Shown: in pieces, positions 13,429 through 44,802 of the stretch | Layout of the letters: each line of letters opens with the position of its first letter | Position numbering within the stretch: the stretch's first letter is position 1 | Assembly: GCA_000697335.1 (NCBI GenBank) | Contig: JNEM01008402.1 | Span: forward strand, 1-45,514 | Source of the DNA: Conidiobolus incongruus B7586 | Lineage: Eukaryota | Length of the DNA stretch: 45,514 nt | Direction: 5' to 3' | Program-made: the position numbers and the translations under genes | The notes under the pieces: model-generated | Told to the model about the DNA's origin: nothing | Database searches by the model: none | What the model saw: only the letters and a program-made list of their open reading frames with translations

Positions 13429-14325
13429 ATGAATGAAGAGGCTACACTATTTTCTTTGGCAGCTATTGAGAAGGGTAAAGGTTTTAATTTAATTGATGAT
13501 GAAGATTTTGCATTTTTAAACGTTTATAAAATGCCTGTTAAAAGGAGAACAAGGCGGATTAAACTAAGGGATTGGATATGTTCTCCAGTATTTCAGTATT
13601 TTATGTCTGGATTAGTCGTTCTTAATTTATGTTTATCTATCACAGAATTCGTTATGGGTATTTTTATAGCCAATGGTACCGTTAAAAATATTCATCGGGT
13701 GGAGTTTGCTCAGGATACTATTTTAAAAGTGAATTTAGGGTTATTAGCATTATTCAATGTGGAAGTGTTAGTGAGAGGTGGGTTAATTGGCTATAAATTA
13801 TATTTTCAAGATGGATGGAATGTATTTGATTTTGTGATTATTTTTCTGTCTTGTATCCTAGAAGCCTTGTATCTAGTGGATTTTTTGAAGGCTTTACAGA
13901 AAGCAGTCACTGTGGGGATGGCGTTTCGACTTTGGAACGCGCTTAGAATCGTTCATTTAATAGGAAGAACTTTGACAAATCAAGAACAAGCTAGGTTGGA
14001 TGTGGCTCAAGAGCATTATCGGTCGATTAAATTGAAGCTTGATGACTTAAAAGGTATGAATTCAAGGTTAACTAAGGAGAAGCTTCGATACCAAAAGAAA
14101 CTGGCCAAATTTGAAAAAGAGCTGGAGCAAATTCAAGCTGAGAACATAAATTTCCATAAAGAATCATGGCAGATGATGGTTCCTATTCACAATTCCTTAA
14201 ATATTCGCTCGAATTACATTAAGGACAAGTCTCTAAGTCGTGTTCCTTCGCTAACCTATTCCAACACAAGTTCAGATTTCTCATTTTCTTCTAACAGACG
14301 TAATTCAGCACTTTGGTTTATATAA
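13429..14325 (+). CDS. Hv1-like stand-alone voltage-sensing-domain protein with C-terminal coiled coil and a non-canonical filter
   Basis: Four TM helices: S1 LVVLNLCLSITE, S2 LALFNVEVLVR, S3 WNVFDFVIIFLSCILE, S4 FRLWNALRIVH (Hv-type RxWxxxR). No pore domain. A heptad-rich coiled coil follows S4. Confidence 0.75.
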   Translation: MNEEATLFSLAAIEKGKGFNLIDDEDFAFLNVYKMPVKRRTRRIKLRDWICSPVFQYFMSGLVVLNLCLSITEFVMGIFIANGTVKNIHRVEFAQDTILKVNLGLLALFNVEVLVRGGLIGYKLYFQDGWNVFDFVIIFLSCILEALYLVDFLKALQKAVTVGMAFRLWNALRIVHLIGRTLTNQEQARLDVAQEHYRSIKLKLDDLKGMNSRLTKEKLRYQKKLAKFEKELEQIQAENINFHKESWQMMVPIHNSLNIRSNYIKDKSLSRVPSLTYSNTSSDFSFSSNRRNSALWFI

Positions 14326-15171
14326 ATAATTTATAATGTTATCAATTAAAATAGTAATATCCGATTGATTCTCTTATTACTATTTTTATTGATTATATTT
14401 ATTTTTAATAACTTAAATAAATTCATTTTAGTTATTATATTATATCAAAATATATATTATTTTTTAAATTTATTGTTTAAAATAGAACAAAATACAGGTT
14501 ACTCATCTCTTATGATACTCCATAGATATGACATACATGAATTAATGTTAGTAACTTCATTTATTCTACAATATAACCAAATTTATTCGATCTTTTCTAT
14601 ATCTTTGAACTATAGTTAGTATGCATTTTGATATTTTGTAAAATTGTAAGCCTATTTCAATAGCTATTAAATCCATAAAAACATTACTGTATATAACAAT
14701 GAGATAAATGATTAAAATATAAATCTTTAACATTAAAAGTTTTTATAATGTAAATCTTAACGATTTACGAATTATTCATCATAAATGTTAATATATTCAA
14801 AACCAAGGATTTTAAAGATCAAATTTAGGAAAATTCTACTAATTTGACTTCAAATTGATTTTAAATAAATTAATAAATTAGAAACTCAAATTGAATTAGC
14901 TTTAACATTATTAAATATAAATTGAAGATCTTATAAAATAAGAGTTTAAATCTATTAAATATATTTTCCAAATAGTATATGTTGATTAACTCTATTTGAT
15001 TACATCTTAATTCATATCAATTTAATATTTCTAATAACAGATCATTTAAAGTAGAATGGCTAAGCAATAAATATGGATAATCGCTTAACACAAAACATTG
15101 GCATAGTATAAATAAAATCATCAAGGACATTATTTTGTAATTTTAATAATTTACTCTAATAAAATTGAAAA

Positions 15172-16593
15172 ATGTTGCTATTGAGCAAATATGTAATATT
15201 ATTAAGCTTATTAATAAGTAAAATCAATTGTGCGGGAGCTAGTATACCACCAATTCCTTTTAGCTTAAAAAGTATAATATCTGAAAGTACCCCACTTTTT
15301 TTCAATCAAACTTTAGATCATAACAACCCATCAAATGGTGCTACATTCAGTCAGAGATACTATGTTAATTCAGATTATTACAAATTGGGAGGTCCTGCAT
15401 TTCTGTACATCAGCGGAGAAAATGAACTCAGTGCATCATCGATCACTTCAGGATTGGCAGCAACATTGGCCAAAAAGTTTGGAGGAATCGTATTCGGATT
15501 GGAGCATCGATTCTATGGCAAGAGTCAACCTTTCAACAGTTTGACAGCTGATAACCTGTCATACTTAACATCGGATCAGGCATTATCAGATTTGGTTAAC
15601 TTTGTTAAAAATATAATTAATCCAACTACTAAACAGCCATTCGATTCTAATACAAAGTGGATAACGATTGGTGGAAGTTATGCTGGCAATCTGTCTGCTT
15701 GGGCCAGAATGATGTACCCAGATATTTTTTTCGGAGCGTTAGCATCTTCAGCACCTCTGAAAGTAAAAGAAGATTTCTTTGAATATGATGAAGAAGTTCA
15801 AAAGGCAATAGGTTCCGAATGTCTCCCATTAGTCAAACTAGTTACCGACTTAGTTGAAGCTATTGTTTTATCCCAAGATCAACAGCAAATCCAAAATTTG
15901 AAGAAAATGCTAACTTGCGAAGAAATCGATGATCCCATACTCCTTTTGTATACTTTTTCAGATTTAGTATCAAATATTGTTCAATATAGTAATCCAAGTA
16001 TGCCAAACAATATTCAAAGTATGTGTGAAGGTTTCAAAAATGTCCATGGACCAGAAGAACAATTGAAGTATTTTAGTGGTGTATTCAAAAAAGAGTTGGA
16101 AAAGATGGGCAAAACGTGTTACCAATTTACATCATATGAAAGTTTACTCTCTCTGATACCTTCTGAAATGCGATCATTCCGACAGTGGACTTATCAGTGT
16201 TGCACTGAGTTCGGATATTGGCAAACTGCACCCCACAAACCAGGCCAAAAATCCTTGCGTTCAAGTTTACTCACCAAGGAATGGTTCAAAAAATTTTATT
16301 GTGGCCCCAAGGTCTTTGGGAAGGAAGTGGGCCCTTCCAATACCAAGCAAATTCGGGAGAGATATATTAAAAATGGGACAATGCCTAGGATCATATTTTC
16401 TAATGGGGAGAATGATCCTTGGAAAGCATTATCGATTACTAAGCGTGCTAGATCTAACTTGGATCAACCTGTTTATATTATTCAAGGCGGGAGTCATGTA
16501 ACTGATCTTGGTCCAGATTATCCTAAAGATTCGGAGAGTTTAAAACATGTAAGAAATAGTATAGCTGCAGATATCGGGCGATGGCTATCATAA
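15172..16593 (+). CDS. Secreted serine peptidase, family S28 (prolylcarboxypeptidase/thymus-specific serine protease-like)
   Basis: Signal peptide, QTLDH..TFSQRY, LEHRFYGKS, GGSYAG (Ser), NGENDPW (Asp), GGSHVTDL (His). Intronless, 473 aa. Confidence 0.92.
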   Translation: MLLLSKYVILLSLLISKINCAGASIPPIPFSLKSIISESTPLFFNQTLDHNNPSNGATFSQRYYVNSDYYKLGGPAFLYISGENELSASSITSGLAATLAKKFGGIVFGLEHRFYGKSQPFNSLTADNLSYLTSDQALSDLVNFVKNIINPTTKQPFDSNTKWITIGGSYAGNLSAWARMMYPDIFFGALASSAPLKVKEDFFEYDEEVQKAIGSECLPLVKLVTDLVEAIVLSQDQQQIQNLKKMLTCEEIDDPILLLYTFSDLVSNIVQYSNPSMPNNIQSMCEGFKNVHGPEEQLKYFSGVFKKELEKMGKTCYQFTSYESLLSLIPSEMRSFRQWTYQCCTEFGYWQTAPHKPGQKSLRSSLLTKEWFKKFYCGPKVFGKEVGPSNTKQIRERYIKNGTMPRIIFSNGENDPWKALSITKRARSNLDQPVYIIQGGSHVTDLGPDYPKDSESLKHVRNSIAADIGRWLS

Positions 16594-17483: not shown

Positions 17484-18838
17484 CTAAAGTTCTTCATCTT
17501 CAGCATCATCATCTTTCTTAGAATCTTCCTTATCTTTGGATTCTTCGTCAACTTCCTCACCTTCTTCACCCTCTTCAGCTTTCTTGGCCTTTTCTTCTTC
17601 TTCGGCCTTCTTACGTTCTTCTTCAGCCTTCTTTTCAGCTTCTTCGTCAGCCTTCTTCTTGGCTTCCTTTTCAGCGGCTTGCTTGACGACAAAGTTCTTT
17701 TCAGAGAATTCCTTGGCGTATTTAACGTCGTCTGTTATGAGGATATCATCAAAGATAGAGCCGGACTTGACTTGCCAGAGATCGAAACCAATGTAATTGG
17801 AGGTGTATTTACCAATAGACTTATCTTCCTTGTATTCTGGATTGGGAATCTTCTTGGGAGCCCATTCACCCTTGTATTCTGGATTGGCGATTTGCTTAGG
17901 AGCCCATTCACCCTTGTAATCGGGGTTGGGAATAAGAGGAGCTTCCCATTCACCATCAGCATCATCATCCCAGTCTTCAGGCTTCTTGGCATCGGGATCA
18001 ACAATAGTTTCAGGACCATCAACCCAGTCGTCGGGCTTCTTGTCTTCAGGATCAGGAATGAATTGATCTTCAACCCAGTCTTCAGGCTTCTTGTCTTCAG
18101 GATCGTCGATTTCCTTAGGGGGAAGGACAGTCCAGTCGTCGGTAATATTACCAGAGACAGATTCTTCATTGTCGACTAAAATCTTGTAGGTTTGATCAGG
18201 ATGGATGATCAAAGTGTATTGGTGAGAGAAAGAATCATCGGGAACATCGACGTGCTTAGTGATAAGATGGTTTTCATCCTTGTAGTTGAGAATAGCGTGA
18301 ACCTTACGGTCAGAACCACAAATATCAGGCTAAAAAGATGGATAAATAAATCTATATTATAATTTTTAGTATATAATAAACAGATACTTACACCAAACAT
18401 AATATTATATTTGGAATCATCTTTGAATTTTTTCTGATCAAGTTCTTCCAAAATCTATTCACAAGACAAAAGCTCTAGTTAAGTTACAAACTGGTAACAT
18501 GGGATATTTACCTTAACATAACCACCACCACATTCAACAGACTTTTCAAACTTGGCAGAGAATTGAATAACTAAGTCTTTATCAGAGTTATCAAGGGGAG
18601 AGTCGAAAGGAGCAGAAATAGAGTAGAAACGAGCGTCTTCAGAGGTTTGTAAACCTTGAGAAGCTTTCTTATCGCCATAGTATTCACCAGAGCCTAATTG
18701 AAATTTACCGTAGTCCTCCTTAGCTTCAGATTGAACCCACTTCTTGGGGATACTGTCACCAGAGAAAGTTTCTTCAAAGTATACCTTACCAGAGACGGCA
18801 GATAATAATAAGGCAGAGATGAAGGATAATTTATTCAT
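17484..18838 (-). CDS. CRT: Calreticulin, 3 exons: 18838-18512, 18454-18392, 18329-17484
   Basis: Signal peptide, GLQTSEDARFY, ECGGGYVK, YNIMFGPDICG, P-domain repeats (DPEDKKPEDW, GEWAPKQI), IGFDLWQVKSGSIFDDILITDD, acidic tail ending DEEL. No TM segment, so not calnexin. Confidence 0.95.
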
Positions 18839-21157
18839 TATTGTGTAAATGACAATATTAGTCAAAGATTATAAAATTAGGAAATGAATCGAGCACGAAG
18901 TAGGTGACTTGGTTTGATTATATATTCCAATAAATGAGAAAATCCCAATACCAATTGATACCAGTTGAATTCACATTATTTTTTAAAATCTACCAATGAT
19001 ATGTGGACATGTAAAATTCGATACGAATCATCAGTTAATTTGTTCTATTAACATTGAAAATTCTAGAAAATCAAGTTAATTATTTATCTAAACATTGACC
19101 ATATGATTAATTTCATTATATTATCAATATTAATTATTAATAAGGTATTGAATATATCATTTTCAATATAATTTTTATATTATTGCTCAGTTTATCCAAA
19201 CATTTGGACTATTAAACTATTTTCAAAACCATAAATTTACATGGAAAATATATCTGATTTAATAATTTTAAATTTAGTCAAAATTAATATACTTATGTTA
19301 ATCAATACACCAGTCAAGTTATTAATCCACAAGATAAACTAAAATGATACATAAAATTCAATATATATTATTAAATTTCATTTTAATAAATTATTAAAAA
19401 TTTCCAAATAATTTGATTTATGAATAATATGACAATCATTTCGAAACTCTCTACACATTAGTATTCATAACAGATTTTAGTTGATATATGAAAATTAACC
19501 ATATCCTATGTTATAAATATCTCATCAAAATTAGTATGGAATAACTAAAAGGTAATATATAATCCTACCAATTATATGCTAGAATGTGGAAGCTAAAATC
19601 AAAAGTTGAAATTAGATTATTCAAAATACTTTTTTATTTTTATATGGCATTATAGTATTTTCAATTTTGTTAAATATAATGAATTTTTTACATATTTGAA
19701 TATAATTTTAGGATTATCTCAATAGTAGTATAACAAATAGAGAGTGTTTTTTAACTTTCATATTAATCAATAAGGCCCAATATTATTTTTTAGCATTACT
19801 CGCTTGTATGGAAATATTGCTTATTTGTAACGAATTATAGATATAAGGAAAGTTTAATGAAAATTCAAATGAAAACGGGTTTAAATTTTATGCAAGAATA
19901 TTTGGTAAATATTTTTATAATAGAGGCTTGATTTGGACATTGGAGTATCAGAATAATTTTATACTTCAAAATTATCTATCAACCTTTTCGTGTTAAGTAA
20001 ATATATGTAGAAAATTTGATGTTGTGGGTGATTATTGATTAAAATTAATTTCTATGACTCACTTCGTTTATGATTATCATTGATAATCAGATATTTGAAT
20101 CATGTTATTTTTAAATTTCAATTTTCTAGATATTTTTCAGTTATTTAAACAGTTGTATATATTCAAAATAACATAAATAACAAGAAATACAATTCATTTA
20201 AGCTTATTAATTTTAACCTCTGGCTTTGAGTGTAATTCGTATTTTTTTTTATTTTGATCAATAATTAGATTTATTGTTTTTTAGTACTTAATTCTTTATT
20301 TTTATTGTTAATATTTTGATTTTAAAAATGATTAAAATAATGAATCAATAACGAATTAATTATTTATATTATAATTGAATAAATTTGATAACATTTAACC
20401 AATGTTTTATGTTGATATATTGATAGATTATGCTTTCTAAATAATCATATGCCTAGATAAATTAAATAGATAAGATTTTATTCTTTTAAAAAAATAAGAT
20501 GATAAAAAATTCCAAAATATAATTAAATTTCATATTTGGATATTCGTTCTCAATAAAATAAATCATTAAATACTTCAAATTTATTAAATTTTGAAATAGT
20601 ATTACTCTGGGAAATAGTGAATCAGTGAATAAATAAATAAAGGTTATATTGCAAATTGATGATCATATACTTTCAAAGTATAGAATAAATATGAAGCAAA
20701 TGATGAAAATATTGAGATCATGACATTAGGGATTCGTGTAAATAGTTATAATATAACCGATATTATAAATCAGAAAATCTGATTAAATAATAATTGTAAT
20801 TAAGTATGAGCTAAAACATTTTAGTATAGTATTGATATAAATCATAATATAAAATATATGATGTTGCCAAAATAAAGAGAATAATGATGAAAGATTTATC
20901 CCATAATTCCAATTAAATAAATTCAAGAATCAAATTAAATTATAAATTTAGGTGTATGAAAAATTACCTAATCAAAATTAAAAATCAGTTAAAAACTATC
21001 TACAAAATTAATATAAAAATAGATAATTCCATTTCAATTTAAATAACTGATTATCTATTATTATTACTAAATTTACACCAATATATTACTATTTAACATA
21101 TATATCAAATTGAATTTGAGGAAAAATTCGGATCAGATCATAAAATAAATTATCAAA

Positions 21158-23900: not shown

Positions 23901-26263
23901 TAAAAATTTATTTATTATAACTTTTTATACACTAGCAATTTAATAAAAATAATTATCTGCAATCGTCAAAAGTAAATCATTTAAATTCCAGCTACTGGTC
24001 TCCAACTGATTTAAATCATTGTCTATATTTTTTGATAGACAGCTTAAATATAAGCTATATCCTTCCCTTTGAACTTATTTACATAAATTATGAATATATG
24101 AGGGGTAGGCATTGTTATCCTTAAATTAATAGTAATAGCCTACAGGAATGGACTTAAAATCTTTTCTCATATTTTCTAATACATAACTAGATACAATTTA
24201 TTAGTATCAATTTATGTTTTTGTGGTTAGTAATACCTTAAAGTCTATTTTTTCATCGGGAAAGGATTTATTTGACAACTTATTGGATGAAATAATAAAAC
24301 CGCAGCATCGCTTAGAAAATACCAAGTATACGTAATAGATATGTAGCATATCATATATTTCCAGTTCATCCAAATGGATAACTGTAGTAATCCCTGGGAC
24401 AGGACCCAATTCATTTAATTTCTTGCTAAAGGAGCATATAAAACAAATGTAGGCAAAACGTAAACAGACATGAGATGGCAATCTTAAAACGAGAAAGAAC
24501 CAGAGGACACAGGCATACAAAGTGTGGGCAGCCACCTTGAAAGAAAAGTGACTTAGAGGTCAGTCGACCTTCACAGAGCAGTCAAGCTTAGCACATGCGA
24601 TGGAACTCGAGACAGAAGAGGAGATATCAATTCGGTGTATGTCATTGATAGACAAGCCTTTGAGGTGGCATTATTCGTCGAGTAAGGGTTATAAGAAGCC
24701 CTCAATACGTTAAAGTTTAATCATTTACCCTCTTTTAATATTTTCTAATTGGATATTTCTCAAATTAATTTTTATGGGATCATTTTTCGAAAATTCACTT
24801 AGTTTGAATAATATTTTCAAATTATCAAATATATATTTATAATAGTTGGTATAAGTATTGATGTGTATAGACTGATATTATTATCAAGGTATCAAGGATA
24901 TAATCTTATCACCAGAACTACTATTATTTATATATATTCTGTAGTATGAAATTTTTTAATTCATTGATACTAGCATTTAAACTACAACATATTAAATTGA
25001 TCAACGCATATAATAAACAAACAATGAAATAATTCAATGGTATTTGATGATGTTATTAATTTTATATTATATTAAAATGACTTCAATAATTGATTCTAAA
25101 ACTTGTGTTTATGTTCAAAACTTTATAGAATAGTTAATATTTCTTTTTTGATGATTTGTCTTTAAATTGTACACTTAATCTTTAATAATATATTTGATTT
25201 ATTACATAGAATTTTTAAAATTTTTCAATATATAACATAAATAAGTAAAGTTGTTAAGAAATATTTCAAAGCAATAATTTACGAGGTTTATTGGTAATCT
25301 TGATGTATGATGATGGTTATACATAATATTATAATAAATGTAATTTGATAGAAATTCAATTAGGATGAAAATAGTTTATGTAAAGAATTTTTTACACCAA
25401 GATTTATATAATGACTGTTTTTTATACTAATATAATCAATTTCATTATTTTTTCTTATCTAAACAAATATTTTTACAATAAATAGCTTGTATAATAACGA
25501 AATGAATCATCATTAAAAATTACGAATATTTAAGTTGTATCAAAATTCGTTTCTTCAATAAAGTCATTTTTTATTATTGAATCTGTTGATTTCTGTTTTT
25601 CAAATTTCAAATTCCCTGAAATATTTTATATTAATCGATAATTGTAGGCTTATTAATATTAACACATTTTTTTGTAAATGATTTTATCATCACATTATAT
25701 AGATTATGACTTGAACAGTTGATTAAATATGAATTTCAAAATATAAAATTTTATATACTATATTTAGTTACAATTAAAATATATAACTTAATTTAACTTT
25801 TAATATTCAAGTATTTTGAAGATGGAAATAATCTAAATTAAGAAACTGAAATATTCGTATCGATGATATATACCAAATTAAGAAATTATTTGATAAACAA
25901 ATTCCATTTCATGATAACCATTATATATAATTTATATTATGGGATTATTAAGTTAATTTTACTAATAATTTCATAAATCATAAAGAGTGATTACGCAAAC
26001 ATCTAAACCTTCAAATTTAGCATTTCCATTTAAACAATTTGTACAGTTCATTAATATAATCATTAATTCTTATTGATTTTATTAATTCCATTATTATAAC
26101 AAATATTAAATCATCTCTTATTCGATTTCAATTTCATTACTTTGATATCAACCTATATAAGATCTGTAAGTATTACTAATTTCACTAAATTACTTCAAGT
26201 CACTAATTATATTTAGGTTTATCAATCGACAACTTTTGAACATAAATAAGTATCATTTAAAAT

Positions 26264-29241
26264 ATGACCACAGCTATTAGTTCAGCTTCTGGCCTTTTGT
26301 CTTTACTTGATGAATCACAATCCGAGGTCCAAGTTTACGCTCTTAAAGAATTAAATGCTATTTTAGATCAATTTTGGGTAGAAATTTCCGATTCTATCGC
26401 CAAAATAGAAATTCTTTACGAATCTGAGGGGTTCGAACAACGTCAATTGGCCGCTTTAGTAGCTTCTAAAGTTTATTTTCATTTGGGAGAATATGAAGAA
26501 TCTTTATCTTTCGCTTTAGGTGCTAAAGAGCTTTTCGATTTGTCAGACAAGAGTCTCTACGTTGAAACTATTATTGGTAATAATTTCCATATTTATTTAT
26601 GATTTTATCTAATTTTAAATTTATTAATTTAGCTCAAGCTATTCAAAAATATATTTCTTTACGTCAAGAAGCTTATGCTGACCCTAAAAATGCCCCTGCT
26701 ATTGATATTCGTTTGAAATCCGTTGTTGAAAAGATGTTTAATCGTTGTATTCAAGAAAAAGAATACAAACAGGTCAGTTTCAAAGTCAATCATTGTAGTT
26801 CCTTCATTAAATCAAATCTTTAGGCTATTGGTATTGCTATTGAGAGTCATCGCTTAGATATTCTTGATACTGTAGTTTCAGTGGGAGACGCACAAGAGTT
26901 ACTTCAATATGTCTTAAACATTGCTCTTACTTTAGTTCGTCATATTCAATACAGAGATGAAATTTTAACCAAATTGGTTGATATGTTTCTTCATTTGCCT
27001 AACCCTGACTATCTCTCAGTCAGTCAATGCTATGTTTATTTAAACGACCCCATTTCTAGCTCTCAATTGATCAAGAAATTGATTGCTGAGGAAAGTACCA
27101 ACGAAAATAATATTTTAACTGCTTATCAAATTGCCTTCGATTTGAGAGATTCAGCTACTCAACACTTTATTAATCAATTATTGAACGATTTCGTTCCTGT
27201 CACAGGCGAAGAGCTCAAAGATTTTTCTGATATTGATTCAATTCCCGTCGATGATTACGTCGCACGCATTAGATATATTTTAACTGGCGAACTTGGTACC
27301 AGATTATATCTCGAATTTTTGAGTCGTCACAACCATGTCGATCTTTCCATTTTGCGTAATACTAAACACTCTATGGATTCTCGTAACTCTTTATGCCATT
27401 CAGCTCTCTCCTTTGCCAATGCATTCATGCATTGTGGTACTACCAGTGACCAATTTTTGAGAATGAATCTTGAATGGCTTTCCAGAGCTACCAACTGGTC
27501 CAAATTTACTGCTACTGCTGCCTTGGGTGTTATTCATAAGGGAAATATTCAAAACAGTATGAAATTATTGACTCCTTATCTTCCTCAAGAAGGATCTAAT
27601 GGTAGTCCCTACTCCGAAGGTGGTGCTCTCCTTGGTCTTGGTTTTATTCACTCCAATCACGGTTCTGGTGTTTTACCCTATCTTCTCGAATCTTTGAAAA
27701 ATGCTAAAGTTGAAGTTATTCAACATGGTGCCGCTTTAGGTTTGGGCGTTGCTGGTATTGCTACTGATGATGAAGATATCTATGAAGCTCTCAAAGGTGT
27801 TTTATTCACTGATAGCGCTGTTGCTGGTCAAGCTGCCGGTTTAAGTATGGGTTTAATTATGCTTGGAACTGGATATACTCATGTTATCAATGAAATGCTG
27901 CAATATGCTCATGAAACTCAACACGAAAAAATTATTATGGGATTAAGCGTTGGTATTTCTTTAATCAACTATGGTCTACAAGAAAAGGCTGATCCCATCA
28001 TTGATCAATTATGCAGCGATAAAGATCACTTACTTCGTTATGGTGGTATGTACACTATTGCTATGGCCTATTGTGGCACTGGTGATAATAAGATGATCCG
28101 TCGTTTACTTCACGTTGCTGTTAGCGATGTCAGTGATGATGTTCGTCGTGCTGCTGTCACTGCCCTTGGTTTCATTCTTTTCAAGACTCCTGAACAGGTT
28201 CCTCGTGTTGTTCAACTTCTTTCTGAAAGTTACAATCCTCATGTCCGTTATGGTGCTACCTTGGCTTTAGGTATCTCTTGCGCTGGTACTGGATTAGCTG
28301 AAGCTATTGAAATCTTAGAACCTATGACCAAAGATCCCATGGACTACGTTCGTCAAGGTGCTTTAATTGCTCTGGCCATGGTTCTCATTCAACAAACAGA
28401 TGCTTCTAACCATAAGGTTGGTGTTGTTCGCAAGCTTTATGAATCTATTTTATCTGATAAGCATGAAGATTTGATGGCCAAGTTTGGTGCTTCTCTTGGT
28501 CAAGGTATTATTGATGCTGGTGGCAGAAATCTTACTATCTCTCTTCAATCTCAACTGGGTTGCATTAACATGCCAGCAATCGTTGGTATGGCCTTATTCA
28601 CTCAATTCTGGTTTTGGTTCCCAATGGCTCACTTTATCTCTTTGGCTTTCAAACCCACTACCATTATTGGTATTGACCAAAATCTCAAAGTTCCTGAATT
28701 CTCCTTCAAATCTAATGCTCGTCCCTCTTTATTTGCTTATCCACCCAAATTCAAGGCTCCTACCACTAGTGTTGTAGAAAAGGCCGCTACTGCAGTCCTT
28801 TCGACCACAGCTAAAGCTAAGGCCAGAGCTAAGAAGCGTGAAAAGTCACAGGATATTGATGCTATGGATGTCGATGAAAAGACAGAAAATCCTACTGTCG
28901 AAGAACCCAAGCCCATAAAATCCAAGAAAGAAGATAAGGATCAAGCCACATCTGCCGATCAAACATCTGAAACTGTTTCCAATATGCATCGTGTTGTTCC
29001 CTTCCAAATCCAGCATATTCAATTCTTGGATTCCAGTAGATACCAACCCATCAAACAGCCAGTTGGAGGTTTCATAATGCTCGCGGACAAGAAGCCCCAT
29101 AGACCTCCTCGCTACATATACCCCAAACCTCCCTCCGAAAAGAAGGAAGAGAAGAAGGCTGCCGCCATTTCAGAAGCTGCTTCCACATCAGCTCAACCAG
29201 CTGCTCCCACTACACAAGAGTCCAGTGGAAACACCGAATGA
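26264..29241 (+). CDS. RPN2: 26S proteasome regulatory subunit Rpn2/PSMD1, 3 exons: 26264-26576, 26633-26772, 26824-29241
   Basis: SASGLLSLLDE..DQFWVEISD, TTSDQFLRMNLEWLSRATNWSKFTATAALGVIH, PC repeats, QFWFWFPMAHF, AVLSTTAKAKAR. Confidence 0.96.
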
Positions 29242-30741
29242 GTAATTGCAAAATGCAAATGACTTTTTATATTATAAAATATTTTGATTAATTTTTTTAT
29301 TATCTAAAATGTGTAATCGACTTATATTATGTTGCTATTTTTATTTATTGATAATATAATATATCAAAAATGTTTTAGACTCATAATATTATTTATATTT
29401 CCTAGAATTGGGCAAAATATTCAAATTTGGCTAATTTTCAATTGAGCTTTTTCGAATTCGAATCATATTTGATATAATTAATAATCGATTAATAGATTGA
29501 AATTTTTTTTTGTAAAATTATTTTTAATAACTTTAAGTAGTAAAAATATTAAATGAATAATTGAATAAATTTTAATGTTTAATTCCAGTATCTTAATTTT
29601 GAAAAATCATGTTAAAATGTCGCAAACTTGAGATAGTTTTAATATTGTATTCACAATAAATTAACATTTTAATATAATTAAAATATTAAATTGATTATCA
29701 TCATCATGGTATATAAAATATCTTTAAAACATTTATAATTTTTACCTTATTAAACTAATTTAAACTTATTATTAATAATGGGATGACATTGTGATAAAGA
29801 AAAATGAAATATGTTAAATCATTTTCAACAAGTAATGAAATTTCATTAATCTTTTTTAGCAATTGTAAATCATTTTGGTTAATACACTCATCATTATTTG
29901 AATATTAATAAACATATATACAATTATCATTAAAAAGCAAAGCTTAATGAATATTTTGGGATATATTATGATCTAATCAATTATTATAAATCGATATATA
30001 AATTATATTATAGATATTAAAAATATAGTTTCAACTCTCAAAATTTGATAAAAAACGAACTATTTATATATTGAATATGATTCAAGTTTCTTTAATTGAT
30101 AAATATAAGTATTCATTTTTATAAGTGTTATATTAATATCAACGAATTGATCATTGATTATATTTACTCAATAATAGTTATTTTTACTATTTTTTATAAT
30201 ATTGAAAAGAATATTATTATGAATGGTAAAATAACTTTTTTAGTTAAACTAATTTTTTAAATTTTGAATAAATATATTGAGTGATATCAAAACAGTAATA
30301 TTCATTCAATATCATTAGCTTATAATATATTAATTACTTATCAATATTCTATGAAGTATCGAATAATTACGCATTTCAAATACCATTCCATTAACAGTAA
30401 CAAAACATGAAATTTGGATTAAAATTCGACAACCACAAAAAAAAACCAAAAGTTTACCCATAAAATCAAAAGTTAGATACCAAATTAATATTCATGGACT
30501 CGTTTTGAACCCAAAAATTCAATTCACAATTCTTATCTGTGAAAAAAATATATATTAACCTAAAATCAATATTTAGGTTGAACTTATTCAACTCTCCCTC
30601 TCACCTAAAAATAATTCTTAAATTATATATCTATACATTAATTATAAATATTTTAGTTAGTTTGATTCTAATAAAATCTATAATAATTGATAATTGGATT
30701 GATATATTAAATTTTTAAATAATTAAAAGAATATTTAAAAT

Positions 30742-33700
30742 ATGTCGGATGCTAAATATTTTCAAAGAGGTAAATATAAAAAGATATATATATATATTAT
30801 TAATAATGATCCATACTATTTCTTTTAAAATGTTATTGACTCATATTTTTATAGGTAAAATTCAGGAGCTTAGAAGTGAGTTAAACTCAGATAAAAGAGA
30901 TCCTAAATTCGTCAAAAAGAAGACTACTTTAAAGAAAATAGTAGCAAATATGACTATGGGGAACGATATGTCCGGTTTATTTCAAGATGTGGTGGGTTGT
31001 ATGAATTTGAATATTCTAGAAATTAAAAAGATGGTGTATTTGTACCTTATTAACTATTCCAAATCCAAACCCGAGCAGGCTGCCCAAGCTGCTCACTACT
31101 TTTTGAGAGATGCTAGTGATCCCAACCCCTTAATTAGGGCTTTGGCTCTTAGGACTATGGGGTATATTCACGTGGATAAGATTACCGAGAGTTTGATAGA
31201 ACCTTTGAGGCAAGGCTTACAAGATCAAGATCCCTACGTGAGAAAGACCGCTGCCGTTTGTGTTGCTAAATTGTATATCCACAATCGTCAATTGGTGAAT
31301 GATGAGGGCTTTATCCCGATGCTTAAGGACCTTTTACTCGATCCCAATCCAGCTGTCGTTGCCAATGCTGTGTCATCTCTCGCCGAAATATCCGAAAGGT
31401 CTCCCGATCTGACACTGCAACTGAATATGCGCATTGCTAGTAAACTCATCGCTGCTTTGAACGAATGTTCGGAATGGGGTCAAGCTTACGTCTTAGATAC
31501 TTTACTTTACGTCGTTCCCCAAGAGCCTGGAGATGCCGAAATGTTAGCAGAACGTATTGCACCTCGTCTCCAGCATGCCAACTCCAGCGTTGTGTTAAAT
31601 GCCATTAAATTGATTATTTACCTGATGAATTATATGGGGAACGAACAAGATGTCAAAAACTTTACCAAAAAACTGTCACCTCCTCTCGTCACTTTATTAT
31701 CTAGCGGTCCCGAAGTACAATACGTGGTCCTTCGTAACATTTTACTCATCATTCAAAAGCATCCAACCATACTTCAGGGCGAAATCAAGGTGTTCTTCTG
31801 TAAATATAACGATCCCATCTATGTTAAGTTAGCCAAATTGGAAATCATCTTCAGACTGACCACTGCCGAAAATGTGAATCAAGTGTTGAGCGAATTGGTC
31901 GAATACGCCTCAGAAGTCGATGTCGATTTCGTCAGAAAGTCAGTGAGAGCCATTGGACGTCTCGCCATCAAGATTCCCTCAGCTACTCAGAAGTGTATCT
32001 CATCCTTACTCGATCTAATTCAAACTAAGGTTAATTATGTTGTTCAAGAAGGTATTGTCGTCATCAAGGACATCTTTAGAAAGTATCCCAACAAGTACGA
32101 AAGTATCATTGGCAAATTATGTGAAAACCTAGATACATTGGACGAGCCCGAAGCTAAAGCTGCCATGATTTGGATTCTTGGTCAATATGCCGATCGTATC
32201 GAGAATTCTGATGAAATTTTGGATGGCTTCTTAGAAAACTTTTTGGAAGAAACACCCGAAGTACAATTATCGCTACTAACAGCAGTAGTCAAATTATTTA
32301 TCAAGAGACCGACAGCTGGTCAAAATCTTGTCCCCAAAGTGTTGAAATGGTCTACCGACGAAGTAGACAATCCCGATTTGAGAGACCGAGGATTTATTTA
32401 TTGGCGTCTCTTGTCCGTTGACCCAGCAGCCGCTAAAACCATTGTGCTCTCAGAGAAACCTGAAATTTCTACAGAAACTGAAAACATTGAAAAGACACTA
32501 TTGGATGAACTTTTATTTCATATTTCTACCCTGTCTTCTGTTTATCACAAAGTTCCCGGGTCATTTATCCCCAATGCTAAGCCTAGATATCTCATTCAAT
32601 CTAAAGTTTTATACTGCTTGGTTTATAAAGGAGATAATGAAAATGACAAGCAATCTGCTCCTACTCAAAAACAAATTCAACAAGCTCCCATTGAAGAACA
32701 GCAAACTACATTCCCTCAAACCTTTGATACTAATAACTTTAACAATGATATCAACTTGGATAATGACTTTTTCAATAATGACTATGTCAATACAGCTGCT
32801 CCTGTTCGCAACAACCATATGGTTGATCTTTTGGAATTTGATGATGGTAATTTCGACTCACCAATGGGCCAAATTTCATCCACTGTGGACTATGGCAACT
32901 CTGAAATGGCCCAATCCAATATCTCTTACGAATCCAACTTACTTGGCCAAAGTGGTTACAACTCTGTGTCATCCATTACTGGTGCCAACATGGCTACCCC
33001 TTACGATCCCTATAAGTCTAGTCAGTTCCCAGGCTATGCTACCAGCAAGAGTATTTTTGGTTTGAATGACGACTCCAATTCCAATTCCTTGATCCTTGGT
33101 CAAAACCCTTCATTAACACCAAACAATGCCAACTCACCCTTCGCATCCCACTCTCAATCTGGCCAATTCTCCCAATCCAATTACAATTCATTCTCCGACT
33201 TCAACACTACCTCCAACTCCTCATTCTACACCGCCAACGCATCTCAGTCCATGACCACTTCCTCAACATCCAACTTCGATCTCCTTTCCGACTTTTCATC
33301 TAATACTATAGGTGGGTCCAGTTCAAACTTCAATTCTGTTGCTTCCAGAAGTAATTCCACTCCATTTGACAATTCCTCTTCGTTAATGGGAGATAATAGC
33401 TTGAATTCTTATCCTATCAGAAGTCATACTACTCCATTTGACAAATCTCAGAATTTGATTAACGATTTGGGTAAGTATTAGAATAACTTTCAAATAATCA
33501 TAGTCTGACGTTTTGTTTAACATAGGCTTAGGTATTGATCATTCCAGTTATTCCAAGATTGACAATGATCCCCGGTCCACTTCCCTTTTCACAACTCCTA
33601 ACGTTAATCAATCCGATTTCTTATCCAACAGTATGAATAACTTGGCTTTGGAAACTGCTTATGTTGCTCCTAAGACTAAATTGTTAGACGCTCAATCCAG

Positions 33701-34417
33701 TCAAGGTTTAGAGATTTTTGGCACGTTCGCTCGTAGGAAAGGTCAAATCCAAATGGAATTACGTCTCGTCAACCGTAACAACGTCCCCTTGTCAGACTTT
33801 GCCCTCCAATTCAACAAGAACCCATACGGTATCACACTGAAGGATCCTCTATACGTCCCAACGCCTCTCGCTCCCATGCAAAGTCACGATGTAGTGGTCA
33901 ACTTGAGTCGCAATGGACCCACAGGACCTTGCACGCCTCCCAATCTACTTCAACTGGCATTCAAATCCAACCTGGGAATATTCTACACGCAGACCACTGT
34001 TTCATTGCATGTACTTTTCAGCGAAGAAGGCTGCCTAGACCAAACGGATTTCCTCAACCAATGGCATCAGTGGTCCGATATGGAAGAACGACGCTTTGAG
34101 GTGTATGGCATCCCATCCATCCCCAGTGTCAAGGCACTCAGGAATAAGTTGCATCTAAACAATGTGTTCACTGTTGCGGATCGTAATATCGATGGCAAGG
34201 TAATTCATCCTCATATACTTATATTACAATTCAATTAATATATTTCGTTTAGAACTATTTATTCATTTCACTCCAACTCGACGACTCTACCCTCTTCCTC
34301 GTCGAACTCACATTCTCTCAAATTCCGGTGACTTCGTGCTCCGTTAGCATCAAACCTAGCAATCATCCATCCGTTCAATTGGTGAACGAAGCTTTGCAAA
34401 ATATTTTAAAATCTTAA
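30742..34417 (+). CDS. APL1: AP-2 adaptor complex beta subunit (beta-adaptin), 4 exons: 30742-30769, 30855-33470, 33526-34199, 34253-34417
   Basis: [34 protein letters not shown] is a fungal AP-2 beta-type N-terminus. It is followed by the adaptin trunk ([28 protein letters not shown]), a long S/N-rich hinge, and appendage domains ([23 protein letters not shown]). AP-2 versus AP-1 was judged by eye. Confidence 0.88.
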
Positions 34418-34679: not shown

Positions 34680-34887
34680 AGATAACATCAAAGAATTTCT
34701 AATTATCAAATTATATCAATTAATTTTTTAAATATTTTATATTTTAAAATTTCATTCTAAAGTTTACAGTTTAATTCTCTTTTAGAAATTTGTGATTTTA
34801 AGTTACACAAACAAATCATTTGAATTTCAATATAAATTATGAAATGACCACGAAACATTGAATTTTATTTTTAAATTATAAAATACA

Positions 34888-36078
34888 ATGGTTCATAATC
34901 CCAAACAATTTTATCAGCCTATTAAAATCCCACCAGGTCAAGTTGTATTAAAAGACGATGAAACAGTAGACACTATTCCAAAGTTATTGCAGCCTATCAC
35001 CATCAAGTCAGTTACCTTGGCTAACAGATCAGTTGTGAGTCCCATGTGTATGTACTCCAGCGAAGATGGTTACTTAACCGATTTCCATCTCGTACACTAC
35101 GGAAGATTCGCCTTGGGTGGAGCTGGTTTAATTATTGTAGAAGCTACCGCAGTACAACCCAATGGAAGGATTACACCTAACTGTGCAGGTATCTACTACG
35201 ACGATCACGTGCCCACCCACAAGAGAGTGGTGGATTTCGTTCATAATGTTGGAGGCAAGATCGGGATTCAAATCGGGCACGCCGGTCGTAAGGCGAGTAC
35301 GCTACCGCCATTTCACGAACGTTCCAGAGGAATCGCTTACGCCGAGGATGGTGGCTGGTCCAACGTCGTAGGTCCAAGTGACGAGATTTGGGCCCAGCAG
35401 GGATTCTTACCGCCTCAAGAGCTTACGAAAGAACAAATTAAAGAGCTCATTGAGGCGTTCAAAGATGGTGCCAGACGAGCCAACGAAGCTGGCTATGATG
35501 TATTAGAACTGCACGGTGCTCACGGCTACTTGATCCACTCCTTTGTGAGTCCCATATCGAATCACAGGACCGACGAGTACGGCGGCAGTTTCGACAACCG
35601 TGTGCGATTCCTTTTGGAGATCGTCGATGCTGTCAACCTCGTATGGCCTCAGAACAAGCCCCTATTTGTGCGCTTGAGCTGCACTGACTGGGTAGATGCC
35701 AGCGACACTTGGGATTTGGACCAAACCGTCCAGTTGAGCCAACTTCTCAAACAAAAGAATGTTGATCTGATCGATTGTTCATCTTCTGGAAACTCTCCAC
35801 TCCAAAAGATCCCAGCTGCTCCAGGGTTCCAAGTACCATTTGCCGAACGTATTCGTAAGGATGTAGGAATTTTGACTGGTGCTGTAGGACTCATCACCAC
35901 CGCCAAGGATGCTAATAAATATTTAGAAGATGGCAAAGCTGACTTAATTTTTATGGCGCGTGAATACTTGAGGGATGATGCTTTCGTCAATACTGCTGGT
36001 CTCGAATTGGGTGTTCATGTGAAGTGGTCCAACCAATTTGAGAGAGGAAGGCCTCGACCTAAGCATGAAGCTTTTTAA
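34888..36078 (+). CDS. NADH:flavin oxidoreductase / Old Yellow Enzyme, YqjM/NamA-like
   Basis: NRSVVSPMCMYS, IQIGHAGRKAS, ELHGAHGYLIHSF.SP.SN.RTDEYGGSFDNRVRF, PGFQVPFAERIR. Intronless. Confidence 0.93.
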   Translation: MVHNPKQFYQPIKIPPGQVVLKDDETVDTIPKLLQPITIKSVTLANRSVVSPMCMYSSEDGYLTDFHLVHYGRFALGGAGLIIVEATAVQPNGRITPNCAGIYYDDHVPTHKRVVDFVHNVGGKIGIQIGHAGRKASTLPPFHERSRGIAYAEDGGWSNVVGPSDEIWAQQGFLPPQELTKEQIKELIEAFKDGARRANEAGYDVLELHGAHGYLIHSFVSPISNHRTDEYGGSFDNRVRFLLEIVDAVNLVWPQNKPLFVRLSCTDWVDASDTWDLDQTVQLSQLLKQKNVDLIDCSSSGNSPLQKIPAAPGFQVPFAERIRKDVGILTGAVGLITTAKDANKYLEDGKADLIFMAREYLRDDAFVNTAGLELGVHVKWSNQFERGRPRPKHEAF

Positions 36079-36285: not shown

Positions 36286-37907
36286 TTATTTTGAATTTTC
36301 AATAACAATACCTAAAAGTTCCCAAGCTCTATGAAATTCTTTGGAAGTTAACTCATCAGTTTGATAATTTTTGCGTAATACTTTAAACATCGACTGCAAA
36401 ATATCTTCCAAGTTGGAATCGTCTTCATCATCGTCTTCCGGATTGAAACCCTTGAAAATTTTTATATTGAGATGGTTTGATTGAATGGTTTGCTTCAGGC
36501 CTTCAAAAGTTATCGTATCACTGTTTTTAGGGAAGAATAATTCCAGTGTTTCAGATATTAATTTCGTTGGCAATTTGTCAATATTCTTTAACTTGTTGCG
36601 GGAATTAGATAGGTTGGGGCTTTTGGAAGACGATCCCGACGTCCTGAAATCATTTATACGGAATTTGCGTCGTTCTTTCGTCAGATCTGGCATCTCTGAA
36701 CCCCATCCTGGTAGTCTTATAACCTAATATTAATTAGTATTGGTGCTAATTTATATTTTGAATAAATTACAATTGCACTACAATTATCTTGTGCCCCGAA
36801 CATTTCAGCTAATTTCACTACTTCTACAGCCGCTGATGTGGGATCGGGACAGGTTTTTATCTAAATTAAAGAATTAAGATGAAAAGCTGATCAATTATGA
36901 AATCATAATGAAATTACAATATCAACAATCTCCTGGTCCGAAATAACTGATAAAATCCCATCCGTTACCAAAGTTAAAAAAGCCAAATCGTCTCCACTAT
37001 AATTCCTCGAGGTGGTATCAGGCTCAGCAATCACTCCATATTTTTTGGCGGATAAATCACCAAATGCTCGGGTGTTGGCGAATTTCCCCATTGTCATATC
37101 TTCGCCAAACGAGTCGGTGATGATGAACCCGCCCAGGGATTTGATTCTAGCTCGCTCTTTCGGTAGGGAGGGATGGTGCTCCACCGATATGACTTCGGAT
37201 CTTCCTGTCTTGGTGTGGCAAACGATAGCCCTAACCAATTAATCAGTGTAATTATACAAAAGGTATAAAAATTACCTAGTATCTCCCACATTAGCCAACG
37301 TAATCGTATATTTCTTTGATTCCCAAAAGGGCAAATCGTCCACTGTCTTAATAATAGCTGTCGCAGCAGTCGCGCCTCCTACCAATTTTTTCTCTCTAAT
37401 TTGCCAGTCGATATCGAGGTAGGTGAGACTTAACAACTGCTCAAGTGTGAGTGGCCTATCACTCAATTTGGTATCCACCCTATTCCTCAACGTAATGGGC
37501 GCATACTTATTCCACTTGGGACCCAACCCCCTATAATTTTCAATGATTTGCTTCAAATCCTTAGGTTCAATACTCTCTAGTCTCTGGGGTAATTTGCACA
37601 CCAGATGATCGACGCATTGAGAACCCCCATGCCCATCAAATAGTCCCGCGAATACCAAATTCTGAGCTGGAAACCCTTTTATACTGAGTGCTCGCACGTT
37701 ATATCGGTCCTCGTTGTATTCTCTATTGTTTCGCGTCGACCTGATACCGATCAAGTGGTTGGAATTGTGTAAATTCACTTTGAGGTTGGGATTACTCCCA
37801 GGTATATAGTGATTAAAGCCATTATCAACGTTCTGGGAATAGAATCGAATAATGTAAGAAGAGATTGGTTTAATTTTTTTAATATTATTGAGTAATAGTT
37901 TTGCCAT
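36286..37907 (-). CDS. Mitochondrial PP2C-family phosphatase (Ptc6/Aup1-like) with C-terminal extension, 4 exons: 37907-37276, 37230-36918, 36860-36771, 36723-36286
   Basis: Basic presequence, REYNEDR, LFDGHGG, ANVGDTR, HHP..PKE..RI, NTRAFGD, LVTDG, AQDNCSAIVIRLPGWG. GT-AG introns join the three track ORFs in frame. Confidence 0.88.
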
Positions 37908-38036
37908 TTTGTTAGAGAGAATGATGATGAATTAAAACTAGTAGAGTTGATTTATCATAAATGAAAGTTTGAAACATGTGACTTTGAAATGATGTCATTA
38001 ATTGTAATTTAAAAAGGTTTTGAGGAAATTCGACAA

Positions 38037-43497: not shown

Positions 43498-44802
43498 CAC
43501 GATCAATATTAATGATAATTAGTGATATCAAGTAATTAATTGATCAAAAATGTTTTAATATAACTTTTGTAATATTGATAATATAGATATATGGCTTATA
43601 ATATTGTATGAAAGAATATAAAAATGATTAATTAAGTATTATACAAAAATGCCCAGGTCTGAAAAACAAAAAAAATAATCTAAGACCAGGTCAACATATA
43701 ATGAAATGTTATAGGAATGATATTTTATCAAGGTATTCCACTAGCTGATCTAATAAGCTTATATATGAATATCTCATAATAATCGTGGTACTCTTGAGGG
43801 AAACCTCTTTACCATTTGAGAACAATTGAAATAGTTACAAATACGTTTCAAAGATTTGATTCTCCACTAAATTTCAATTTCACTAATATCTCTTTATTGA
43901 ACTCAAGTTTCATAAACAATTGCTGAAAATTAAGTTGATGGTTTCAAATTAAGCTCTAATTTGATTGGTTCAATTCGATTATTAAAGTTGTCAAGTGTAT
44001 ATCATCTAATTGTTTCATAATTCCAATCATTCAAATATTATCAAAGATGGGTTCTACAATACTGATACTCATAGTGAATGTTTATTACGTTTGAATATAT
44101 TCTTAAATTAATATAGTTTATAATTAAACAAATGGTAAATCTTTTGATTTGAATACAAAATATATATTTACTTTATTTAATATAATAGCTTAAATTAGTA
44201 TGTTTTAAAAATTTTATCAATGATCATATTCAATATTGCCAAGAATAACTTTGGTGAATTGACTATTATTTAATAATATTTATTGCATATATTTATCACA
44301 TTTAATTTACTATTTATTTTTTCATCATTTTTGAGAATTTGTAATTCCTTCATATTCATAATTTTTGAAACAAATTTTTGATTTTATAGTATTCAATGAT
44401 GAAATGGATAAATATATTTTTGATAATAGTCAAACATTAATAATCAAATATTATGTTACTCATTATTTAAATGTTTGTATACTTTAATTAAGTTTAATTT
44501 AAATAATTTAGGAAGAGCTTAATATAATAGGATAGTATTAAGAAATAGTATTAAAATTTTGTACCAATATTATTATATTGTAGTATTCAATTGAAAAATA
44601 TATTAAAAATATTTGAAATTTTCGGAATAAGTTTATAAAAAATAATGTAAATATGAATATAAATATAATAGTTTAATATTTCGATAAAAATGGTATAATT
44701 TTATAATAATAAAATCCTGAAATTAAAATTATATTAGCATTTATTTTGTTATAAGAATTAATGTATAAGTGTTTGATACTTAAATTTAGTCTTAAGATAT
44801 TG

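What the first reader, a model, noticed from the sequence alone, without database searches (positions are those of the whole stretch)
13429..14325. Hv1-like voltage sensor with both selectivity-filter partners replaced by Asn
Seen: an intact pore-less 4-TM voltage sensor plus coiled coil. S1 LVVLN(66)LCLSITE aligns with human Hv1 LVVLD(112)ALLVLAE, and S4 FRLWN(170)ALRIVH aligns with LRLWR(208)VARIIN. The codons are AAT at 13624 and AAC at 13936. The S2 F/E, the S3 D and the Hv signature Trp are retained. Established: D112 is the Hv1 proton-selectivity residue and interacts with R208; neutralising D112 removes proton selectivity and gives anion permeability. Inference: the paired, charge-balanced loss looks like co-evolution rather than decay, pointing to an undescribed Hv paralogue that is anion-conducting, non-selective, or a non-conducting sensor/regulatory subunit.
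Basis: partly seen in the sequence, partly recalled or inferred. Interest (0 to 1): 0.72.

Follow-up and report, generated by a model that had tools for sequence, protein, structure and literature searches.

The report
Fungal proton-channel paralogue lacking its filter

Summary
Observation confirmed. The 298-aa ORF is a pore-less S1-S4 domain plus coiled coil. N66 and N170 sit in ungapped register with hHv1 D112 and R208, and S1 has no other acidic residue between 55 and 72. The pair is not private. Five of five close sequences carry it, among them two C. coronatus paralogues (87% and 53% identical). That species also has a D/K-filter Hv. All 25 Asp-bearing Hv rows have R or K at the second site. 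Two more pathway sites turn polar (V116→S70, S143→N102), and net pathway charge is unchanged. dN/dS against a broken duplicate is about 0.2. Caveats: co-evolution rests on one origin. Asn at the S1 site is the usual Nav/Cav residue (40 of 55 domains), and the trees do not show whether it was gained or kept. Published anion selectivity depends on an unpaired R208, which is missing here. Expression was not seen and no current was measured. Best reading: an Hv-family paralogue, likely a weakly selective, non-proton-specific voltage-gated pore (0.42). Rivals: non-conducting sensor (0.33), residual proton channel (0.18). New variant of a known kind.

The parts
13429..14325 (+). Single-exon ORF, 298 aa, Hv-family pore-less voltage-sensor protein (P0001)
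   Evidence: same length as annotated C. coronatus KXN69225.1, 87% identical
13564..13662 (+). S0 helix and S1 (residues 46-78)
   Evidence: AlphaFold helices at 41-50 and 53-81; alignments
13624..13626 (+). N66, at the hHv1 D112 selectivity site
   Evidence: codon AAT; Asp in 25 of 25 Asp-type rows, Asn in 5 of 5 clade members
13636..13638 (+). S70, at hHv1 V116, the only other S1 site where a carboxyl gives proton selectivity; polar and not acidic here
   Evidence: V or I in 25 of 25 Asp-type rows, S in 5 of 5 and in P0130; PMC3840923 passages
13717..13779 (+). S2 (97-117) with N102 (S143 site), charge-transfer F109, E112 and R116
13813..13875 (+). S3 (129-149) with N131, D134 (D174) and E145 (D185 site)
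13903..13965 (+). S4 (159-179), motif R-x-W-N-x-x-R-x-x-H: two arginines, signature Trp kept
13936..13938 (+). N170, at the hHv1 R208 (R2) site
   Evidence: codon AAC; R in 22 and K in 3 of 25 Asp-type rows
13972..14163 (+). Predicted coiled coil continuing S4 (182-245); dimerisation inferred from Hv1/TMEM266
   Evidence: heptad fit; continuous helix in both models
14164..14208 (+). C-terminal SWQ-x-x-VP-like motif (246-260) shared with the second paralogue and the distant Tyr/Tyr member P0130, absent from the Asp-type rows
   Evidence: alignment

Best explanation
This is a conserved Hv-family paralogue of Conidiobolus-type fungi whose Asp-Arg proton filter is replaced by a neutral polar set (N66, S70, N102, N170), and it likely works as a predicted dimeric, weakly voltage-dependent channel whose voltage-sensor pore would pass small ions without proton specificity. 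Shown: sequence, register, conservation, fold class, and a separate Asp-bearing Hv in a close relative. Inferred: the two remaining S4 arginines (R167, R173) move across F109 and pair with E73/E145 outside and E112/D134 inside, giving about half the usual gating charge. When the neutral N170 lies at the constriction there is neither a carboxylate to relay protons nor a guanidinium to plug the pore or repel cations. That leaves a hydrated, charge-neutral path. Non-selective or cation-compatible flow (about 0.30) is likelier than anion-selective flow (about 0.12). The D/K paralogue would keep the proton-extrusion role.
For: N/N is in 5 of 5 close sequences spanning two paralogues 53% identical. 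The sensor has 82 of 136 positions invariant against 11 of 45 in the N-terminus. Pathway strings differ from the Conidiobolus/Basidiobolus D/K channels mainly at D→N, V→S, S/G→N and K→N, with equal net charge. The changes add polarity, whereas non-conducting TMEM266 has Val and Met at core sites (PMC6392501 section 5). In hHv1, hydrophobic Val/Ile at 112 abolish current, while Asn or Ser at 112 or 116 give non-proton current (PMC4969798 section 12; PMC3840923 passages). Neutralising D112 together with an S4 arginine restores current and gives Na+ or guanidinium flow (D112C/R211C, D112S/R211S, D112N/R211S in the tables of PMC4969798). CiHv1 R258N conducts with 0.50 of wild-type gating charge. 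In Ci-VSP, D129N and R226A each open omega currents (PMC10686229 passages). C. coronatus KXN73556.1 keeps the S1 Asp.
Against: No current was measured. The double mutants that conduct involve R211, not R208; I saw no D112N/R208N mutant in the passages read. hHv1 R208N and R208Q gave no current in oocytes, and CiHv1 D160N is nearly non-conducting (PMC10779229 passages). The review calls the guanidinium result anomalous and not reproduced in HEK cells. R173 could reach N66 in the open state and restore an unpaired positive charge, which would favour anions. The distant clade member P0130 has bulky Tyr at both sites and Lys at the 102 site, so a polar path is not kept across the whole clade. Asn at the S1 site is normal in sensors that do not conduct (40 of 55 Nav/Cav-type domains). 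I had no model coordinates, so side-chain positions come from alignment only.
Confidence: 0.42

Rival explanations
1. A non-conducting voltage or pH sensor, as TMEM266 is: S4 moves and signals through the coiled coil and the conserved C-terminal motif, possibly as a regulatory partner of the D/K paralogue.
For: CiHv1 D160N gives gating currents with almost no ionic current. hHv1 R208N gave no current in oocytes. TMEM266 is an Hv1 relative that dimerises and does not conduct protons. The clade shares a C-terminal motif that Asp-type rows lack, and P0130 has Tyr at both filter sites.
Against: The changes are polar and invariant in both paralogues, not a hydrophobic plug as in TMEM266. Losing one of three gating charges weakens a pure sensor. 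TMEM266 co-expression did not alter Hv1 currents, so the one tested precedent for a regulatory subunit is negative.
Confidence: 0.33
2. Still a proton channel: protons cross on a water wire through a charge-neutral constriction, helped by E145 (longer than D185), E73 and H176.
For: Net pathway charge equals that of the D/K channels. Morgan et al. link neutrality of the constriction to cation permeability. CiHv1 D160N passes a small proton current at a pH gradient of 2. W169, F109, E112 and D134 are kept.
Against: The published minimal filter is a pore-facing carboxyl on S1 at 112 or 116 plus a basic partner, and attempts to move the Asp to S2 or S3 failed. S1 has no acidic residue from 55 to 72. 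All 25 Asp-type rows keep D with R or K.
Confidence: 0.18
3. About origin, not function: the protein is an early-branching stand-alone sensor that never had the Asp, or a detached Nav/Cav sensor, so the S1 Asn is ancestral.
For: S1 Asn, S2 Asn and the S3 W-N-x-x-D pattern are typical of Nav/Cav sensors. In three rooted trees the clade is sister to all Asp-type Hv, with support for that split of 89/72, 92/86 and 93/82, none starred.
Against: It is not nested among Nav/Cav sensors, which stay one group at 99/96 to 100/99. Grouping with domain IV is rejected (p-AU 0.003). None of 55 Nav/Cav rows has the S4 Trp. Without the outgroup the clade joins the Basidiobolus/Conidiobolus D/K channels at 97/92, and with it that grouping is not rejected (p-AU 0.15 and 0.43). 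The best single-domain hit outside the clade is the Basidiobolus Hv. The known range is narrow.
Confidence: 0.25
4. A decaying or unexpressed duplicate, or an assembly artefact.
For: No RNA run was listed, which is no evidence either way. The source runs hold a frameshifted second copy, so this family does produce dead copies.
Against: The frame is intact in 5 of 5 close sequences. S3-S4 is identical at 31 of 31 positions to both orthologues against 29-32 of 45 in the N-terminus. dN/dS is 0.22. The same two Asn occur in paralogues 53% identical.
Confidence: 0.04

Closest known systems
Hv1 / HVCN1 voltage-gated proton channels (hHv1, CiHv1, fungal AoHv1 and SlHv1)
   Same: Pore-less S1-S4 plus coiled coil; S4 Trp, R1 and R3; F150/E153/D174 equivalents; E119 and an acidic D185 site.
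   Different: S1 Asp and S4 R2 are both Asn. V116→Ser, S143→Asn. Zn-site H140 and D123 equivalents are absent. R3 is Arg, not the Lys described for fungal Hv.
D/K-filter Hv of Conidiobolus coronatus (KXN73556.1) and Basidiobolus meristosporus (ORX92032.1, ORY02636.1)
   Same: Nearest group in the Hv-only tree (97/92). Shares W130, E145 and H176 equivalents and the net pathway charge.
   Different: They keep the S1 Asp with Lys at R2. Identity to the query is only 16-22% over the full alignment. Their function is also untested.
TMEM266 (C15orf27, HVRP1)
   Same: Hv1 relative without the S1 carboxyl; coiled coil; coexists with a true Hv in one genome.
   Different: TMEM266 keeps three S4 arginines, has hydrophobic V111 and M185 in the core and a long tail, and is described as vertebrate-restricted. 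This protein has polar substitutions and two arginines.
Non-canonical Hv-like proteins listed by Chaves et al. 2023 (Saccoglossus Gln61 protein, Oikopleura S4 deletion, Limacina Trp-less, Aplysia AcHv3)
   Same: Hv-derived proteins that lost consensus elements after duplication.
   Different: None of those described combines a kept Trp with neutral S1 and R2 sites. AcHv3 lost R1 and still conducts protons.
Omega (gating-pore) currents: Ci-VSP D129N and R226A, engineered Hv1 D112x/R211x
   Same: Neutralising the S1 countercharge or an S4 arginine opens a non-proton path through a sensor.
   Different: Those are mutants, apart from a natural D129N in marmoset VSP noted. Here both charges are neutral in a conserved wild-type gene.

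Membership tests
Hv proton channel (criteria of Chaves et al.) | Four transmembrane helices S1-S4, no S5-S6 pore | tested here: met
   Pfam match ends at profile position 112 of 241. The model of residues 40-210 has pLDDT 84.1, and its top Foldseek row is the Ci-VSP sensor (E 0.002, probability 1.00, TM 0.61/0.75; no row at E<=0.001).
Hv proton channel | Asp or Glu selectivity filter in S1 (position 112, or 116) | tested here: not met
   N66 and S70; no D/E in residues 55-72
Hv proton channel | Conserved Trp in S4 | tested here: met
   W169; invariant in 33 of 33 rows
Hv proton channel | At least two basic residues around the S4 Trp | tested here: met
   R167 and R173
Hv proton channel | Signature RxWRxxR with a basic R2 | tested here: not met
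   N170; R or K in 25 of 25 Asp-type rows
Hv proton channel | C-terminal coiled coil that forms dimers | tested here: inconclusive
   Heptad fit and continuous helix; homodimer not tested
Hv proton channel | Proton-selective, pH-gradient-gated current | not testable with these tools
   needs patch clamp
Hv lineage (descent) | Groups with Hv rather than with Nav/Cav sensors | tested here: met
   Outside the Nav/Cav group in three trees, nearest rows by path are Hv, and grouping with domain IV is rejected at p-AU 0.003. No VSP, TMEM266, TPC or CatSper rows were available.
Hv lineage (descent) | Nested within Asp-bearing Hv, so that Asn is a derived loss | tested here: inconclusive
   97/92 with D/K fungal Hv when unrooted; sister to all Asp-type Hv when rooted, nesting not rejected (p-AU 0.15, 0.43)
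TMEM266 | Three S4 arginines and a hydrophobic residue at the S1 filter site | tested here: not met
   Two arginines and Asn against V111 and R208/R211/R214
Voltage-sensing phosphatase (VSP/TPTE) | Phosphatase domain after S4 | tested here: not met
   Only Ion_trans passes its cut-off in Pfam; the tail is a coiled coil and a low-confidence region
Nav/Cav/bacterial Nav channels | Four or more S4 basic residues and an S5-S6 pore | tested here: not met

The most novel reading that the evidence does not exclude
Conidiobolus-type fungi turned a duplicated proton channel into a natural gating-pore channel: a wild-type, pore-less voltage sensor that conducts ions other than protons through a neutral Asn/Ser constriction. 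It would be the first Hv-family channel with a different selectivity.
Probability: 0.35. Interest if true: 0.85.

Novelty: new variant of a known kind. Interest (0 to 1): 0.6.

Why it matters
[quoted passage not shown] C. coronatus has at least three Hv-family genes, two with both filter charges neutral. This is a natural, well-conserved double mutant at the disputed D112-R208 pair. With single and double Asp/Arg substitutions it can test whether proton selectivity needs a titratable carboxyl or only a charge-neutral water path, and whether R2 or R3 is the partner of D112. If it conducts other ions, it is a new use of the voltage-sensor scaffold.

Tried and rejected
No whole genome is held, so an Asp-bearing Hv in the window's own organism was not checked; tblastn finds no second copy in the window. 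The sequencing-run search listed no RNA holder among 7 runs, which is no evidence on expression. Two runs under a related label gave 0 and 1 laid contigs, also uninformative. Whether the neighbours are duplicated along with the gene is open. The metagenome scan kept 80 loci of 150 confirmed, all distant; a six-frame motif scan of the 80 found no Hv-type S4 in a long frame. Word-index protein searches with the protein and two alignments added no N/N member beyond P0002 and P0003. The first structure model, from 3 sequences, was poor (pLDDT 54.6) and its Foldseek run gave nothing at E<=0.001. In the second Foldseek run no Hv1 entry was among the rows shown. VIA-align gave no result. PDB searches with S1 or S4 alone found nothing relevant. 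The complex prediction of the C. coronatus D/K paralogue with its N/N paralogue returned no verdict (score 0.10, mark 0.34, alignments not used). Three look-ups of earlier findings were empty. I rejected a detached Cav/Nav domain-IV origin and simple decay.

Full report
1. Observation. Window 13429-14325 (+) is one open frame of 298 aa, in AT-rich intergenic DNA between a ribosomal-protein-like gene and an S28 peptidase. Codons 66 and 170 are AAT (13624) and AAC (13936). I checked the register in two ways. By eye against the human Hv1 sequence printed in the supplement of PMC10377628 (part 1 of 8), S1 aligns without gaps from L46 to E73, giving N66=D112, S70=V116 and E73=E119. S4 gives R167/W169/N170/R173/H176 = R205/W207/R208/R211/N214. 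hhalign of a 7-sequence clade profile against a 20-sequence Asp-type Hv profile gives the same ungapped register (probability 99.6, E 6.6e-25). F109, E112, D134 and W169 are kept, and D185 is Glu (E145). There is no pore domain. A model of residues 40-210 from a 34-sequence alignment has mean pLDDT 84.1, with S0, four long helices and S4 running into the tail. Its best Foldseek rows are voltage-sensor domains (Ci-VSP 4g7v, E 0.002, probability 1.00; none at E<=0.001). The ESM Atlas puts Hv1-like clusters first (0.96, 0.93) and TMEM266 third (0.92).

2. Relatives. The word-index search found 2 proteins among 1190 candidates. Their clusters hold C. coronatus KXN69225.1 and KXN71299.1, so the window likely comes from a Conidiobolus-type fungus (inference). 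All five sequences (85-87% and 53% identical to the query) have N66 and N170. A full HMMER search of 1.84 billion representatives gave 327 hits at E<=0.001, of which 150 were listed; the other 177 I did not see. The best single-domain hit outside the clade is Basidiobolus ORX92032.1 (E 1.2e-13). Another hit's cluster holds C. coronatus KXN73556.1, which keeps the S1 Asp and has Lys at R2. That species therefore has at least three Hv-family genes: one D/K and two N/N. Two unnamed sequences extend the clade. P0130 has Tyr at both sites and shares a C-terminal motif. P0088 is a fragment without S1 that has Asn at R2; its placement rests on a long branch. Among 36 Hv-side rows the pairs were D/R 25, N/N 5, D/K 3, Y/Y 1, gap/N 1 and L/K 1; the last is P0146, which reads D/K in another alignment. 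No row had only one of the two charges.

3. Selection. S3-S4 (151-181) is identical at 31 of 31 positions to both orthologues, against 29-32 of 45 in the N-terminus. Across the five sequences 82 of 136 sensor positions are invariant, against 11 of 45 N-terminal ones. Contigs from the probable source sample hold a second copy, roughly 85-99% alike by region. It has a one-base deletion at 13898, before S4, and others at 13783 and 14049; putting all three on one copy is inferred. Using the 40 listed differences of 79 (codons 67-242), there are 21 synonymous and 19 non-synonymous changes, dN/dS 0.22, binomial p 1.5e-5; in the sensor alone 0.20. This averages a live and a dead lineage, and the 5' part is a collapsed contig, so it is a rough figure. 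It shows purifying selection on at least one lineage. No RNA run was listed, so expression is open.

4. Origin. Asn at the S1 site is the commonest residue in Nav/Cav/bacterial Nav sensors (40 of 55 domains), and the S2 Asn and S3 W-N-x-x-D pattern are also Nav/Cav-like. I built trees without the trait columns. With 64 of 91 rows (27 dropped as near-duplicates or for time), Nav/Cav sensors form one group (99/96), and the clade (98/93) is sister to Asp-type Hv with weak support for that split (89/72). Two smaller sets with different outgroups agree (34 and 35 rows), the second also without the Trp and His columns. Grouping with domain IV is rejected (p-AU 0.003). Grouping with the fungal D/K channels is not rejected (0.15, 0.43), and it is the best tree when the outgroup is removed (31 rows, 97/92). 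The likeliest history is duplication of the D/K-type gene followed by fast change, with long-branch pull toward the outgroup, but direction is not proven. No VSP, TMEM266 or TPC rows were available. One origin cannot show co-evolution; the Tyr/Tyr member only shows that both sites stay neutral together.

5. Mechanism. Over 17 positions taken from hHv1 pathway numbering, the clade differs from the D/K channels chiefly by D→N, V→S, S/G→N and K→N, and net charge is -1 in both. S70 and N102 are invariant in the five sequences, while 25 Asp-type rows have V/I and S/G/T. From the literature: proton selectivity needs a pore-facing S1 carboxyl at 112 or 116 with a basic partner, and moves to S2 or S3 failed (PMC4969798 section 12). 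Asn or Ser at 112 or 116 give Cl- current in hHv1, explained by excess positive charge at the external constriction (PMC3840923 passages). Neutralising D112 with R211 restores current and gives Na+ or guanidinium flow, though the review doubts the guanidinium result (PMC4969798 passages). R208N gave no current in hHv1 but conducted in CiHv1 with half the gating charge. CiHv1 D160N is almost non-conducting (PMC10779229 passages). Ci-VSP D129 mutants pass anions and R226A passes cations (PMC10686229 passages). TMEM266 has a hydrophobic core, no proton current and no effect on co-expressed Hv1 (PMC6392501 passages and section 5). I therefore infer a polar, charge-neutral path gated by two arginines. 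A conducting, non-proton-specific channel gets 0.42 (non-selective or cation-compatible about 0.30, anion about 0.12), a non-conducting sensor or subunit 0.33, a residual proton channel 0.18 and decay 0.04. All of this is extrapolated from animal Hv mutants about 20% identical.

6. Comparison with what is known. It fails two defining Hv features (S1 carboxyl, basic R2), so it should not be filed as a proton channel, although UniRef names the orthologues 'Voltage-gated hydrogen channel 1'. It is Hv-like in descent and build. Hv-derived proteins that lost consensus elements are known (PMC10377628 section 16). The same review says R2 is fully conserved (section 19 part 1) and fungi have one Hv each (passages). 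Its supplement does show Lys at R2 in a dinoflagellate (part 5); I read parts 1 and 5 of 8 plus passages, so other variants there may have been missed. Zhao and Tombola's fungal survey does not mention Conidiobolus in its main text (PMC7910559 passages; supplement not read). The four Hv criteria come from PMC10911540 passages. Searches for Conidiobolus with proton channel (2 unrelated papers), Entomophthor with Hv1, six accession numbers and general terms found no description. The library lacks most subscription journals.

7. Verdict. The feature is real and conserved and is undescribed in what I could search. It is a new variant of a known kind. Interest 0.6: a natural double neutralisation of the disputed Hv filter pair, directly testable, but with narrow known range, no expression data and function inferred only.

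Noticed in passing
window 13585-14417, runs X1 and X4: A second, diverged copy of this gene lies elsewhere in the source DNA at about equal depth, with one-base deletions at 13783, 13898 and 14049. Divergence rises from about 1% at the 5' end to about 15% at the 3' end, which could reflect gene conversion or collapsed contigs. The N170 codon is unchanged in it.
   Followed up: partly
P0165 (KXN73556.1), P0016 (ORX92032.1), P0146 (ORY02636.1): Asp-bearing Hv of Conidiobolus and Basidiobolus have the S4 motif R-x-W-K-x-x-R-x-x-H (Lys at R2, Arg at R3), unlike the RxWRxxK described for fungi. Basidiobolus appears to have at least three Hv genes, counting ORX99742.1 listed in PMC7910559. The Conidiobolus one has a long acidic, His-rich S3-S4 loop.
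   Followed up: partly
P0130 and P0088 (unnamed records): Distant clade members. P0130 has Tyr at both filter sites, Lys at the S143 site and Arg at the N214 site. P0088 is a fragment with Asn at R2 and Asp at the S143 site.
   Followed up: partly
P0027: An Hv-like protein with two S1-S4 domains in tandem in one 436-aa chain, both with the S1 Asp and RxWRxxR.
   Followed up: no
window 2936-4132 (-): The ORF looks like a phytochelatin synthase (recalled resemblance, not tested).
   Followed up: no
window 15169-16593 (+): Serine carboxypeptidase of family S28 (Pfam E 1.7e-94); no link to the channel seen.
   Followed up: yes
window 40906-43518 (-): The ORF looks like a GH18 chitinase with a long Pro/Ser/Gln-rich tail (recalled resemblance, not tested).
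   Followed up: no
window 5248-7191, 12183-12530, 17484-18868, 26261-29241, 30719-34238, 34882-36078, 36903-37931, 44803-45513: Ordinary-looking fungal genes by recalled resemblance, not tested: Zn2Cys6 factor, ribosomal protein L35A, calreticulin, proteasome Rpn2, beta-adaptin, old yellow enzyme, PP2C phosphatase, NDUFAF5-type methyltransferase.
   Followed up: no
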